Notes under the pieces: generated by a model
The model's input: only the letters and a program-made list of their open reading frames with translations
Databases searched by the model: none
Told to the model about the DNA's origin: nothing
Made by a program: the position numbers and the translations under genes
Shown here: in pieces, positions 2 to 1,906 of the stretch
Numbering within the stretch: position 1 is the stretch's first letter
Layout: the number at the start of each line of letters is the position of its first letter
Assembly (NCBI GenBank): GCA_964450705.1
Contig: CAYVDB010000005.1
Span: forward strand, 1 to 46,353
Length of the DNA: 46,353 nucleotides
Direction of reading: 5' to 3'
DNA from: an uncultured Candidatus Saccharibacteria bacterium
Lineage (GTDB): Bacteria > Patescibacteriota > Minisyncoccia > Phycocordibacterales > Zambryskibacteraceae

Positions 2-1906
2 CTACATGCTTACGACAGGGACTGTTTAAAAGAAAGCGATGGAGGATGGAAAATATCTGTTAGAAAAGCTCGAAATGGGGAAAGTGTTGTTGCTCTTGAT
101 GGTAATCAGTATTTCTTGGAAGAAACTGATCTTGTCATCACTGATGGAAATACAGATAGCCCCATTGGTATTGCTGGAGTAAAGGGCGGTAAACAAAGTG
201 AGATATCAAAAAATACGAAAAATATTATTCTAGAGGCGGCAAACTTTGATTCGGTATTAATACGAACTACAGCGAAAAGGCTAGGACTCAGGACTGACGC
301 TTCAGTTCGCTTTGAAAATGCAATTACTCCAGAGCTCACTATGGCCGCTCTCGACATGGCGACTTCTCTTATTTTTTCAGTTGCCCAAGGAGACACTCAA
401 GATAAACATCTGCACGCTGAAGGCGCTTGTGACGTATACCCTCGAAGGCCGTCTTTGTATAAAGTGGGGGTATCACTTTCTGAAATAGAAAATATTCTTG
501 GTGTTGGTCTTCAAAATAAGCAGGTGGAAGATATTCTCAAACGCAGAGGATATGAATGGAGTTATGTAAAGCCTAGAGAGATAATAGCTTCTCTAGCGGA
601 GACATTAATTGATGCGCCCTATAAATATGGGGCAAGCGTTGTGTATGATTCTCCTAAAACCTTTGATTGTTCATCTTTATCCAGTTTTCTTTATGCTCAA
701 GCAGGGATTGCTATTCCAAGAGTTTCGATTGAACAGTTTCTTTTTGGTGAAGAAGTTCAAGAAAATGATCTGATGCCAGGTGATCTTGTATTTGCTAAAG
801 GGGCAAAGCCTTACTTTTTTAAAGAAGAGCCTCGCGGAGTTGGCCATGTGGGTATTTATATTGGGAATGGAGAAATTATTCATGCTGCAGGGAGCGCGCA
901 CGGTAATCGTGTTCGGAAAGAAAAACTCAAAGAGTCGTCCTCTTTTGATGGAGATTCTTTTAGAGGATTTCGAAGACTTATTAGAAATGAAGAAGGTCGT
1001 TTTGTAGTTACCGTTCCTGCTGAGCGTCTTGATCTCCGAATTAAAGAAGATCTTATTGAAGAAATAGGGAGGATATATGGATATGAAAATCTTAAATCAA
1101 AAGCGATTTCTTTACCTGAGACAATTCTAGAAATTCACAAAAAAACCTACTACGAGGGATTAGTGAGAAAGTTTTTTGCTGAACGAGGTTTCTCTGAAGT
1201 AATTACTTATGCATTCCAGGGAACCGGGGATATTGAAATTCAAAATCCGATTGCAGGAGATAAAAGTTTTCTGCGGAGTTCTCTTGCTATCGGTCTTAAT
1301 AGTGCGCTCGAGATAAATTCTAAAAATATAGATCTCCTTGGGCTTTCACAAGTTAGATTATTTGAGATTGGAAACATTTTTAAGAAAAATGATGAGTATA
1401 CAGCTCTTGGGTTTGGTATGAGAGATCATAAAGGAACCGCCATCTTAAACATAGAAGAGTTAGTCTCGGAACTTTCTAAGCTTCTCCAAGCACCTATTAA
1501 TTTTAGTGAAGTGGATGGGATATTTGAATTGAACTTTACTAAACTACTTGAATCGCTCGAGACCCCTGTTGAGTGCCTGAGATATGAAAAAAGCTTAGAT
1601 GATGTGAAATATAAAGAATATTCTCGATACCCGGCAATTTTTAGGGATATTGCGGTGTTTATTCCAGAAAGTGCTGATTCTGAGCAGATCATTGAAGTGG
1701 TAAAAAGAGAAGCGGGTTTGCTTTTGGTGAACTATAGATTGTTTGATGTTTTCACTAAGGAATTTTCTGAAGGGAAGAAAACCTCATACGCGTATAAGTT
1801 AGTATTTCAGTCTATGGAAAAGACACTTTCTGATGATGAAATAAATCCTATTATGGATCGTATTACCAAGACACTTAATGAAAAAGCTGGCTGGAACGTA
1901 AGATGA
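2..1906 (+). CDS. pheT: Phenylalanine-tRNA ligase beta subunit (5'-truncated at the window edge) carrying an inserted NlpC/P60 domain
   Basis: The frame is open from nt 2 (LHAYDRD...). It shows B3/4 motifs ([25 protein letters not shown]), a B5 domain split by an insert ([24 protein letters not shown]), a catalytic-like core ([20 protein letters not shown]) and a C-terminal FDX-ACB domain ([26 protein letters not shown]). Confidence 0.95.
   Translation, partial: [634 protein letters not shown]
570..1000 (+). other. NlpC/P60 (papain-like cell-wall peptidase) domain inserted in frame in PheT B5; boundaries approximate
   Basis: Motifs APYKYG, FDCSSL (Cys codon 668-670), [16 protein letters not shown] and [15 protein letters not shown] (His codons 845-847 and 881-883). 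Confidence 0.92.

What the first reader, a model, noticed from the sequence alone, without database searches (positions are those of the whole stretch)
570..1000. Intact NlpC/P60 peptidase domain inserted inside the B5 domain of phenylalanyl-tRNA synthetase beta
Seen in sequence: the PheT B5 domain starts normally ([10 protein letters not shown]...[11 protein letters not shown]), is interrupted by about 140 aa, and then resumes with the conserved [27 protein letters not shown]. The insert carries all NlpC/P60 hallmarks (PYKYG, [27 protein letters not shown]) with a full Cys-His-His triad. Established knowledge: NlpC/P60 domains are mostly secreted peptidoglycan endopeptidases or amidases, while PheT is an essential cytoplasmic translation enzyme. 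Inference: this is a clean domain insertion into a surface hairpin rather than a terminal fusion. It could couple a muropeptide or peptide hydrolase to tRNA charging (for example recycling host peptides in a biosynthetically reduced symbiont), provide a moonlighting activity, or represent a mobile domain. I do not know of a description of this architecture.
Basis: partly seen in the sequence, partly recalled or inferred. Interest (0 to 1): 0.88.

Follow-up and report, generated by a model that had tools for sequence, protein, structure and literature searches.

The report
Cell-wall peptidase domain nested inside PheRS beta
An intact peptidoglycan-peptidase (NlpC/P60) domain sits inside the B5 domain of the phenylalanyl-tRNA synthetase beta subunit of a tiny-genome Patescibacteria lineage, is conserved in many relatives, and even survives as a mini-gene where the rest of the subunit has been lost, so it is a selected enzyme of still unknown substrate rather than an artefact.

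Summary
Window 2..1906 (+) encodes the C-terminal 634 residues of PheT. An NlpC/P60 domain (Pfam E 1.2e-16) is inserted at about nt 563-991, between the two halves of the B5 domain, and no PheT model positions are lost. It is not an assembly chimera: contigs from four other runs bridge both junctions, and the same architecture occurs in 15 of 41 related genomes. The same architecture fits 129 of the best 150 hits in a library of cluster representatives. Cys and the first His are invariant (121 of 121), and the core is as conserved as the synthetase domains. New findings: (1) In eight sister genomes a monomeric, mitochondrial-type PheRS has replaced PheS/PheT, and a 190-240 aa "B5 half-NlpC/P60-B5 half" gene remains at the same locus. 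(2) A cytoplasmic Peptidase_C39_2-like gene follows the module in many lineages and is fused to it in two proteins. Best reading, inferred and not shown: a cytoplasmic gamma-D-glutamyl-type amidase acts on cell-wall-derived peptides together with the C39_2-like partner and rides on PheT without taking part in tRNA charging. A link to loss of MurA/MurC was tested and did not hold outside one family. No publication on this architecture was found.

The parts
2..1906 (+). pheT, C-terminal 634 codons plus stop. The gene is cut by the contig start; its N-terminal 155 codons are on G000:C16, after pheS.
2..379 (+). B3_4 (editing) domain, residues 1-126
   Evidence: PF03483, E 3.6e-34
464..562 (+). 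B5 domain, N-terminal half (residues ~155-187; strand-helix-helix-strand in the model)
563..991 (+). Inserted segment (residues ~188-330), absent from insert-less PheT of relatives
617..904 (+). NlpC/P60 (C40) Pfam match, residues 206-301
   Evidence: E 1.2e-16; PDB 7cfl, E 1.7e-17; Foldseek TMt 0.87
668..670 (+). Codon of the catalytic Cys223 (FDCSS)
   Evidence: Cys in 121 of 121
845..847 (+). Codon of His282 (GHVG)
   Evidence: His in 121 of 121
881..883 (+). Codon of His294 (IIHAAG), the third triad residue
   Evidence: His in 114 of 121; Gln in some stand-alone forms
992..1084 (+). B5 domain, C-terminal half (residues ~331-361)
   Evidence: PF03484 profile 34-67, E 4.7e-14
1142..1531 (+). 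Catalytic-like module (tRNA_synthFbeta), residues 381-510
1622..1903 (+). FDX-ACB anticodon-binding domain, residues 541-634
1903..2472 (+). Peptidase_C39_2-like gene (189 aa, ATGA overlap with the pheT stop, no signal peptide seen, conserved Cys24/His136/Asp157). It is a conserved partner of the module.

Best explanation
SHOWN. This Patescibacteria (Paceibacteria-type, 634 kb) genome encodes a normal bacterial PheT (B1, B3/4, B5, B6/7, B8; no B2). Its B5 winged-helix-like domain carries a complete NlpC/P60 papain-fold domain nested in a hairpin. The nested unit (B5 half, NlpC/P60, B5 half) folds as one compact, confidently predicted body. It arose once or few times, is inherited mostly vertically in several families of the class, and is under purifying selection with the catalytic Cys and His kept. 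It is the only NlpC/P60 domain in the genome, and neither it nor its stand-alone descendants carry a signal peptide, so it works in the cytoplasm. In one subclade the heterotetrameric PheS/PheT was replaced by a monomeric PheS-core+FDX-ACB enzyme. All of pheT was lost there except this nested unit, which stays as a separate gene at the same place. The unit is therefore kept for its own function and not for aminoacylation. It is genetically tied to a second cytoplasmic papain-fold protein (Peptidase_C39_2-like), either as the next gene or fused to it.

INFERRED. The closest sequence and fold relatives are DL-endopeptidases. The residues that hold gamma-D-Glu in YkfC have counterparts here: Tyr in PYKYG and the Asp-Cys-Ser of FDCSS. 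By these two lines the domain is most likely a thiol amidase that cuts gamma-D-glutamyl-diamino-acid type bonds in soluble cell-wall-derived peptides or muropeptides (own turnover products or host material). It would act together with the C39_2-like enzyme in a YkfC-like salvage or recycling role for an organism that cannot make most amino acids. The B5 halves would serve as its structural platform, possibly shaping the active-site entrance as SH3b does in YkfC. Sitting in PheT would mainly give constitutive co-expression and stability.
For: Architecture and junctions.

Conservation:
- 15 of 41 relatives have the insert and 8 of 41 the stand-alone form.
- At least 19 of 300 other genomes sampled from the class have it.
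- 33 named species-representative loci have it, with Cys in 33 of 33.
- 225 50%-identity clusters score E<=1e-30. By length, single full-module match and position, 129 of the best 150 fit PheT-embedded forms, 9 are stand-alone and 2 are fused to C39_2.
- Triad: Cys 121/121, His 121/121, third His 114/121.
- Mean identity to the window is 0.56 for the NlpC core, against 0.39 for CLM and 0.50 for B3_4 (the set was chosen by similarity to this region).

Fold: AF2 pLDDT 93.5 and pTM 0.90 for B5+insert. Foldseek best hit is 7cfl (autolysin catalytic domain), E 7e-12, TMt 0.87, and all top hits are NlpC/P60. PDB sequence hits reach 1.7e-17.

Only NlpC/P60 in the genome.

Remnant gene with conserved synteny (PheRS - module - C39_2-like - gyrB).

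Tree: all 58 B5-embedded modules fall on one side (98*). The 27 stand-alone forms make one clade (99*) inside the family-f1 PheT group (96*).

C39_2-like partner: an ortholog occurs in 16 of 23 module-bearing and 0 of 18 module-lacking relatives. It lies downstream on the same strand in 19 of 33 named loci. Two fusion proteins, P0375 and P0394, are 40% identical over their full length.

Peptidoglycan is made: MurE-like, MurF-like, PBP and MraY-like genes are present.

Precedents read: B. subtilis YkfC is cytoplasmic, and the S1 residues are listed (PMC2954226, passages). Chlamydial YkfC recycles peptidoglycan-derived peptides (bioRxiv 10.1101/2022.11.17.516864, abstract).
Against: - No substrate or activity was tested, so the chemistry rests on homology.
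- The module has no SH3b domains and is not a YkfC-subfamily member.
- The correspondence of S1 residues was judged from motifs, not from a residue-by-residue alignment with YkfC.
- The idea that the module compensates for lost early Mur enzymes failed its wider test. In the family sample MurA was found in 3 of 23 module-bearing and 15 of 18 module-lacking genomes. In the class sample 18 of the 19 insert-bearing genomes do have MurA, so the first pattern is phylogenetic confounding.
- Seven of 23 module-bearing relatives lack the C39_2-like ortholog.
- The co-occurrence counts come from related genomes and are not independent.
- The AU test did not reject a tree with all PheT-embedded modules held together against stand-alone plus free forms (p 0.066). 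The nesting of the stand-alone clade is therefore suggestive only, and the argument for 'remnant of pheT' rests mainly on synteny and on the retained B5 halves.
- Why the insertion sits in an essential synthetase, rather than a separate gene, is not explained.
Confidence: 0.5

Rival explanations
1. Translation quality-control hydrolase. The thiol hydrolase nested in PheRS beta deacylates mischarged, D-aminoacyl- or peptidyl-tRNA, or captures the activated amino acid as a thioester. This would be a new cis/trans editing or transfer activity.
For: It sits physically inside PheRS next to the B3/4 editing domain. The stand-alone form stays directly downstream of the monomeric PheRS, which lacks any editing domain. 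D-aminoacyl-tRNA deacylase (PF02580) was not found in any of 41 relatives. Established knowledge: papain-fold thiol enzymes readily hydrolyse esters.
Against: Dtd is missing equally from module-bearing and module-lacking genomes (0 of 41). Pth is present in all 41, so there is no phyletic complementarity. The closest relatives by sequence and fold are all peptidoglycan DL-endopeptidases, and gamma-D-Glu-site motifs are kept. The conserved partner is another peptidase-like protein, not a tRNA factor. Seven relatives showed only a monomeric-type PheRS match and no module.
Confidence: 0.08
2. Wall-degrading enzyme used outside the cell. It would be released by lysis or an unrecognised export route to cut the host's or its own sacculus, with PheT or B5 merely a carrier.
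For: It is the only NlpC/P60 domain in a genome that makes peptidoglycan. Its closest relatives are secreted autolysins. Established knowledge: episymbiotic Patescibacteria attack host surfaces.
Against: There is no signal peptide or membrane segment in PheT, in 25 aligned stand-alone forms or in the C39_2-like partner, judged by reading the N-termini. No dedicated predictor was run. The domain is embedded in an essential cytoplasmic enzyme. No secretion gene is linked in the loci read.
Confidence: 0.1
3. Non-catalytic or regulatory domain. It would be a peptide or muropeptide sensor, or a structural prop replacing lost PheT parts (B2 is absent), that modulates PheRS or binds nucleic acid together with the winged-helix-like B5.
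For: B5 is an HTH 'DNA-binding-like' domain (PMC3275996, passages). B2 is missing here, as in many CPR PheT (PMC5370408, passage). B5 and the insert are predicted as one rigid body (pTM 0.90).
Against: The nucleophile Cys and the His are invariant in 121 of 121, and in 33 of 33 named loci for Cys. That level of conservation is not expected for a purely structural domain. The module is kept where PheT is gone.
Confidence: 0.08
4. Assembly chimera, or a self-excising (intein-like) or mobile element caught in pheT.
For: The gene lies at a contig start in a 37-contig metagenome-type assembly.
Against: Both junctions are internal to the contig and are bridged by contigs of four other runs. The same insertion point is found in dozens of independent assemblies. 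Pfam finds no Hint or intein domain. The junction residues are not intein-like, read. GC content of the insert resembles its flanks: 0.37-0.41 in windows starting at 451-751, against 0.36-0.44 in windows on either side.
Confidence: 0.01

Closest known systems
NlpC/P60 (MEROPS C40) gamma-D-glutamyl-meso-diaminopimelate/L-lysine DL-endopeptidases, e.g. the C. difficile autolysin Acd24020 catalytic domain (7cfl), B. subtilis LytE/CwlO, E. coli MepS
   Same: Pfam PF00877 match, Cys-His-His triad, papain-like fold (Foldseek TMt 0.87, 35% identity to 7cfl), and the PYxYG / DCS motifs.
   Different: Those enzymes are secreted or lipoproteins with wall-binding modules (LysM, SH3b). This domain is nested inside a cytoplasmic aminoacyl-tRNA synthetase subunit and has no export signal.
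YkfC / dipeptidyl-peptidase VI type cytoplasmic murein-peptide gamma-D-Glu-DAP endopeptidases (B. subtilis, Chlamydia trachomatis)
   Same: An NlpC/P60 enzyme acting inside the cell on soluble peptidoglycan-derived peptides, including in a genome-reduced bacterium (PMC2954226 passages; bioRxiv 10.1101/2022.11.17.516864 abstract). This is the functional model proposed here.
   Different: YkfC has two N-terminal SH3b domains that build the S2 site for a free L-Ala. Here the flanking parts are the two halves of a PheT B5 domain. PDB sequence similarity to YkfC (3h41, E 9.7e-07) is weaker than to autolysins. The partner gene is a C39_2-like protein, not YkfA/YkfB.
Bacterial PheRS beta subunit (PheT, TIGR00472) with appended or lost accessory domains
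   Same: B1, B3/4, B5, B6/7 and B8 occur in the canonical order, downstream of pheS.
   Different: It carries a ~143-residue hydrolase domain inside B5 and lacks B2. The partial protein scores 312.9 bits, below the equivalog cut-off of 402.65.
Mitochondrial-type monomeric PheRS (PheS core + FDX-ACB; TIGR00469, and NF051887 'PheS-related mystery ligase SrmL')
   Same: The enzyme that replaced PheS/PheT in the sister genomes has this two-domain architecture. It scores 235 bits on pheS_mito and 254 bits on NF051887, both below their cut-offs.
   Different: This is not the feature itself. It is the background against which the module survives as a separate gene.

Membership tests
NlpC/P60 (PF00877, MEROPS C40) | Profile match above the curated threshold | tested here: met
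   61 bits against a cut-off of 23, E 1.2e-16; 64.4 bits in the genome search
NlpC/P60 (PF00877, MEROPS C40) | Catalytic Cys at the start of a helix, His, and a third polar residue (His/Asn/Gln) | tested here: met
   C223, H282 and H294. Cys 121/121, His 121/121, third residue His 114/121. Gln replaces it in some stand-alone forms.
NlpC/P60 (PF00877, MEROPS C40) | Papain-like alpha+beta fold | tested here: met
   AF2 pLDDT 93.5. Foldseek: 64 PDB matches at E<=0.001, the top ones all NlpC/P60, TMt up to 0.89.
NlpC/P60 (PF00877, MEROPS C40) | Hydrolysis of a gamma-D-Glu-diamino acid (or related) amide bond | not testable with these tools
   Needs an enzyme assay.
YkfC subfamily (cytoplasmic murein tripeptide endopeptidase) | Two N-terminal SH3b domains, with a conserved Tyr pairing with an acidic residue of the catalytic domain to bind a free N-terminal L-Ala (PMC2954226) | tested here: not met
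   Pfam finds no SH3b domain. The flanks are B5 halves.
YkfC subfamily (cytoplasmic murein tripeptide endopeptidase) | S1 residues for gamma-D-Glu (Tyr226, Trp228, Asp237, Ser239, Ser257 in BcYkfC) | tested here: inconclusive
   Motif-level only: PYKYG (Tyr, with Tyr in place of Trp), D222-C223-S224, and S242 in PRVS. Y, D, C and S are invariant or nearly so in alignment A3. No residue-by-residue alignment with YkfC was made.
YkfC subfamily (cytoplasmic murein tripeptide endopeptidase) | No signal peptide (cytoplasmic) | tested here: met
   The domain is internal to PheT. The N-termini of stand-alone forms are polar. This was judged by reading; no predictor was run.
Bacterial PheT (TIGR00472) | B3/4, B5, catalytic-like module and FDX-ACB in order, downstream of pheS | tested here: met
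   pheS scores 305.5 bits against a cut-off of 237
Bacterial PheT (TIGR00472) | Whole-protein score above the equivalog cut-off | tested here: not met
   312.9 against 402.65 bits for the 634-aa partial protein. The gene is split over two contigs, lacks B2 and carries the insert. The full length was not scored as one sequence.
Intein / Hint self-splicing insert | Hint domain and a nucleophile at both junctions | tested here: not met
   No Hint-family Pfam hit. The junctions read ...EWSYV|KPRE... and ...NEEG|RFVV....

The most novel reading that the evidence does not exclude
The B5::NlpC/P60 unit, with its C39_2-like partner, is a PheRS-docked thiol enzyme system with a role in translation or in coupling the cell wall to translation. 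Examples would be hydrolysing or transferring an aminoacyl or peptidyl ester made by PheRS, or sensing and cleaving wall peptides to tune Phe-tRNA supply. The B5 halves would be kept in the stand-alone form because they still dock it onto the monomeric PheRS or onto nucleic acid.
Probability: 0.1. Interest if true: 0.88.

Novelty: new variant of a known kind. Interest (0 to 1): 0.62.

Why it matters
Aminoacyl-tRNA synthetases are known to collect accessory domains, but a peptidoglycan-type cysteine peptidase nested inside a domain of an essential synthetase subunit has, as far as my searches show, not been described. It is nevertheless common in Paceibacteria-type Patescibacteria: 225 clusters at 50% identity, and public records annotate it inconsistently as 'C40 family peptidase' or 'PheT-related protein'. 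Nature has also done the deletion experiment. Where PheT became dispensable, only the nested unit was kept, which shows that the insert, not the host protein, carries the selected function. The finding therefore identifies a cytoplasmic NlpC/P60 plus C39_2-like enzyme pair as a conserved, probably important and experimentally tractable piece of the poorly understood physiology of ultra-small symbiotic bacteria, likely wall-peptide salvage or turnover. It also gives annotators a rule for these genes. In addition, it is a clean natural example of domain-in-domain insertion followed by host-gene decay, which is useful for protein evolution and engineering.

Tried and rejected
1. Pth replacement. 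PF01195 is present in 41 of 41 relatives, so there is no complementarity.

2. Dtd replacement. PF02580 was found in 0 of 41. It is absent whether or not the module is present, so the result is uninformative.

3. Module compensating for lost early Mur enzymes.
- In G000, MurA, MurC and MurD were not found, while MurE-like and MurF-like genes are present.
- In 41 relatives MurA was found in 3 of 23 module-bearing and 15 of 18 module-lacking genomes. MurC was found in 2 of 23 and 12 of 18.
- In the class sample 18 of 19 insert-bearing genomes have MurA; G239 is not listed among the matches.
- The hypothesis is rejected as a general explanation. It may still matter within family f1.

4. Complex prediction of the monomeric PheRS (alignment A1) with the stand-alone module (A2) gave no verdict: scores 0.03 and 0.00 against a mark of 0.32, controls not run. 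This is neither for nor against binding.

5. Expression. The look-up of sequencing runs listed no RNA holder, so nothing can be said about expression.

6. Rfam gave no match at gathering thresholds for the whole window, and only sub-threshold chance-level hits at 2574-2679. ARAGORN found no tRNA.

7. The fold search of the C39_2-like neighbour gave only generic papain-fold neighbours at TM ~0.5-0.6: 3erv, PCAT peptidase domains, Alr0975 and PeiR. No specific function can be drawn. The ESM Atlas search returned only its own family.

8. The AU test for nesting of the stand-alone clade gave p 0.066, not significant. The groups were named after the tree had been seen.

10. Supplementary files of papers were not consulted because they are closed. 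They could hold domain-architecture tables of CPR proteomes that mention this fusion.

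Full report
WHAT IS THERE

Window 2..1906 (+) is an ORF open at its 5' end, 634 codons long. Pfam finds five domains:
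- B3_4 at residues 1-126.
- NLPC_P60 at 206-301 (E 1.2e-16, 61 bits against a cut-off of 23).
- Only the second half of B5 at 328-361 (profile positions 34-67 of 67).
- The catalytic-like module at 381-510.
- FDX-ACB at 541-634.

The bacterial pheT model TIGR00472 matches window 2-562 at profile 267-440, then resumes at window 989 with profile position 443. About 143 residues are therefore added without loss of PheT positions. An alignment with 14 relatives that carry the insert and 4 that do not places it at residues ~188-330, nt ~563-991. It lies between ...[12 protein letters not shown] and [29 protein letters not shown].

The window starts at a contig start. pheS (252 aa) and the first 155 codons of pheT lie at the end of contig C16 of the same 634-kb, 37-contig, 99.7%-complete genome. 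B2 is missing: profile positions 40-156 are not matched. A paper notes the same for many CPR PheT (PMC5370408, passage).

NOT AN ARTEFACT

Both junctions are internal to the contig. Logan contigs of four other public runs (biofilter, drinking-water and bioreactor metagenomes, four studies, one possibly the source) bridge the 5' junction in three runs and the 3' junction in four, with 0-1 differences. The same insertion point recurs in many independent assemblies, as described below. GC content of the insert resembles that of its flanks. Pfam finds no intein-like domain.

HOW WIDESPREAD, AND IS IT UNDER SELECTION

Among 41 related genomes:
- 15 have PheT with the insert.
- 10 have PheT without it.
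- 8 have a stand-alone form (see "The natural deletion experiment").
- 7 show only a monomeric-type PheRS.
- 1 gave no match.

In an even sample of 300 further genomes of the class, at least 19 carry the insert, in families f65, f27, f95, f70, f58, f44 and f2. The match table was cut, so this is a lower bound.

A word-indexed search of 5.8 billion proteins gave 1622 hits at E<=1e-3. The best 120 all combine PF00877 with PheT domains. The names given by sources are inconsistent: 'C40 family peptidase', 'phenylalanine--tRNA ligase beta subunit-related protein' and 'hypothetical'.

A full HMM scan of 1.84 billion 50%-identity representatives gave 225 clusters at E<=1e-30. The best 150 break down as follows:
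- 129 fit PheT-embedded modules. This is judged from one full-module match at about residues 290-540 of 750-840-aa proteins, or from fragments; only two of these, both fragments, were scanned against Pfam.
- 9 are stand-alone proteins of ~200-233 aa.
- 2 are fusions with a C39_2-like domain.
- 10 are unrelated multi-repeat NlpC/P60 proteins.

In GTDB species representatives, 33 named loci carry the module. They are labelled Paceibacterota, Zambryskibacteria, Nomurabacteria, Parcubacteria and Patescibacteria, plus some third-party assemblies auto-labelled Saccharibacteria. The Cys is present in 33 of 33.

In the window plus the 120 best PheT hits, Cys223 and His282 are invariant (121 of 121). 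His294 is kept in 114 of 121, with N, Q, F or Y in the rest; some of these may be alignment slips. Mean identity to the window is 0.56 in the NlpC/P60 core, against 0.50 (B3_4), 0.39 (CLM) and 0.54 (FDX-ACB). That set was selected by similarity to this very region, which favours the insert.

WHAT KIND OF DOMAIN

PDB sequence search gives 37 hits, all NlpC/P60. The best is the catalytic domain of a C. difficile autolysin (7cfl, E 1.7e-17). YkfC (3h41) scores 9.7e-07.

An AF2 model of B5+insert (216 aa, 36-row alignment) has pLDDT 93.5 and pTM 0.90. Only the variable loop at model residues ~121-130 is weak. The order of secondary structure is strand-helix-helix-strand (B5a), then the NlpC/P60 body, then strand-helix (B5b). 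The insert therefore sits in a hairpin of the winged-helix-like B5. B5 is described as an HTH 'DNA-binding-like' domain in PMC3275996 (passages).

Foldseek against the PDB returns NlpC/P60 DL-endopeptidases at the top: 7cfl with E 7e-12, TMt 0.87 and 35% identity.

The residues that hold gamma-D-Glu in B. cereus YkfC are Tyr226, Trp228, Asp237, Ser239 and Ser257 (PMC2954226, figure legend). They have motif-level counterparts here: PYKYG, D222-C223-S224, and S242 in PRVS. The Tyr, Asp, Cys and Ser are invariant or nearly so in the module alignment. This correspondence is inferred from motifs, not from a residue alignment.

The insert is the only NlpC/P60 domain in the genome. The organism does make peptidoglycan: MurE-like, MurF-like, a PBP and an MraY-like gene are present.

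THE NATURAL DELETION EXPERIMENT

In eight genomes of the same family (G002, G005, G012, G013, G017, G019, G022, G024) the query matched only over residues ~161-366, in ORFs of ~200-240 aa. These ORFs lie right after a ~380-aa ORF that carries FDX-ACB.

Two loci were read in full:
- G024 has a monomeric PheRS (tRNA-synt_2d + FDX-ACB, 383 aa). It is followed, with an ATGA overlap, by a 193-aa 'B5 half-NlpC/P60-B5 half' protein, then a C39_2-like gene, then gyrB.
- G012 has the monomeric PheRS (380 aa), the module (220 aa), then gyrB.

This is the window's own gene order: pheT, C39_2-like at 1903-2472, gyrB from 3049.

The stand-alone protein has 24 relatives in the large database. In the 25-row alignment Cys and His are invariant, and the third residue is His or Gln.

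A quick maximum-likelihood tree of 60 module sequences, rooted on two small free NlpC/P60 ORFs, gives:
- All 58 B5-embedded modules on one side (SH-aLRT 98).
- The 27 stand-alone forms as one clade (99).
- That clade inside the family-f1 PheT group (96), next to the PheT of G003 (90).

An AU test did not reject the alternative of all PheT-embedded modules held together (p 0.066, groups named after seeing the tree). The tree is therefore only suggestive. Synteny and the retained B5 halves are the main grounds for reading the mini-gene as what is left of pheT after a monomeric PheRS took over. Either way, the module is kept where PheT is not, so it is selected for a function of its own.

A CONSERVED PARTNER

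The next gene (189 aa) matches Peptidase_C39_2 (E 3.4e-10). Read by eye, it has no signal peptide. Cys24, His136 and Asp157 are invariant in 14 homologues.

Evidence that it is tied to the module:
- A strong ortholog (E<=1e-40) is present in 16 of 23 module-bearing relatives and in 0 of 18 module-lacking ones. Two of the latter have weak partial hits.
- It lies directly downstream in 15 of the 43 distinct module-bearing loci scanned and in none of the four insert-less loci within the flanks held.
- It lies downstream on the same strand in 19 of the 33 named loci, including distant ones at 33-45% identity.
- Two proteins, P0375 (392 aa) and P0394 (397 aa), have the module fused to a C39_2-like domain. 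They are 40% identical to each other over their whole length, so the fusion is conserved and not a read-through error.

These counts come from related genomes and are not independent.

Its AF2 model (pLDDT 95.1) has only generic papain-fold neighbours: a C39-like peptidase, double-glycine peptidase domains, a phytochelatin-synthase-like enzyme and a pseudomurein endoisopeptidase.

MECHANISM

Shown:
- A compact, conserved thiol-hydrolase unit with an intact active site. It has no detectable export signal (judged by eye), so it is presumably cytoplasmic.
- It is nested in PheT B5.
- It is selected independently of PheT.
- It is linked to a second papain-fold protein.

Inferred:
- It most likely cuts gamma-D-glutamyl-diamino-acid type amide bonds in soluble wall-derived peptides, as the cytoplasmic YkfC of B. 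subtilis and the YkfC of Chlamydia do.
- It would work with the C39_2-like enzyme.
- B5 would act as its platform.
- PheT would provide only expression and stability.

I put this at about 0.5.

TESTS THAT WENT AGAINST, OR NOWHERE

- Pth is present in all 41 relatives and Dtd in none, so neither complements the module.
- A striking pattern in the family sample was MurA in 3 of 23 module-bearing against 15 of 18 module-lacking genomes, and MurC in 2 of 23 against 12 of 18. This suggested that the module compensates for lost early Mur steps. In the class sample, however, 18 of 19 insert-bearing genomes do have MurA. The pattern is therefore a family-f1 peculiarity, and the compensation idea is rejected as a general explanation.
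- The complex prediction gave no verdict.

COMPARISON AND NOVELTY

The domain is a member of NlpC/P60, with profile, triad and fold all met. It is not a member of the YkfC subfamily, because it has no SH3b domains, although it may work like YkfC. The host is a PheT.

The literature searches were:
- 'nlpc p60' + 'phenylalanyl-trna synthetase': 0 papers.
- 'phet' + 'patescibacteria': 13 papers, none relevant by title or abstract.
- 'aminoacyl-trna synthetase' + 'candidate phyla radiation' + 'domain': 22 papers, 15 listed, none relevant by title or abstract.
- 'nlpc' + 'b5 domain': 0 papers.
- PheRS / CPR terms: the two papers that held both kinds of terms were checked by passages and do not mention it.

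The architecture is visible in public domain annotations but appears undescribed. I rate it a new variant of a known kind, with interest 0.62.

Noticed in passing
L034:1636-2787, L027:1290-2432 (related genomes G024, G012): A monomeric, mitochondrial-type PheRS (PheS catalytic core fused to the FDX-ACB anticodon-binding domain, ~380 aa) appears to have replaced PheS/PheT in a set of Paceibacteria; no PheT was found there with this query. The best 120 database hits are 65-99% identical (6628 hits at E<=1e-3, which include ordinary PheS). It scores below the cut-offs of both TIGR00469 (pheS_mito) and NF051887 ('PheS-related mystery ligase SrmL'). I found no paper on it (listing only).
   Followed up: partly
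whole genome G000 and family-f1 relatives: MurA, MurC and MurD were not found in the window's 99.7%-complete genome, although MurE-like, MurF-like, PBP and MraY-like genes are present. Most family-f1 genomes show the same pattern (MurA in 4 of 24). How they obtain UDP-MurNAc-L-Ala-D-Glu is unexplained.
   Followed up: partly
window 1903-2472 (+); P0375, P0394: A cytoplasmic Peptidase_C39_2-like protein with a conserved Cys/His/Asp follows pheT. In two database proteins it is fused to the B5::NlpC/P60 module.
   Followed up: yes
window 2575-2900: A GC-rich island (0.56 against ~0.38 around it) holds an 86-aa minus-strand ORF (2620-2880) with a hydrophobic N-terminus. A hairpin followed by T/A runs lies at ~2587-2612, between the C39_2-like gene and gyrB. 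There is no Rfam family at gathering score.
   Followed up: partly
L035:2327-3085 and 3090-3554 (G000:C16): pheS is short (252 aa; it matches TIGR00468 from profile position 62, so the N-terminal coiled-coil part is missing). The PheT N-terminus goes from B1 straight to B3/4, so B2 is absent.
   Followed up: partly
L055:2039-2473 (+), L056:2007-2477 (-) (G170, G230): Small free-standing NlpC/P60 ORFs (145 and 157 aa) in other Paceibacteria families are ~44% identical to the insert core but lack B5 halves. They are candidates for the kind of gene that was inserted, and were used as the outgroup.
   Followed up: partly
insert, between PGDLVF and GHVG (window ~794-841): This loop of the NlpC/P60 domain varies in length among homologues by about 0 to 35 residues. 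It is the only low-confidence part of the model.
   Followed up: no
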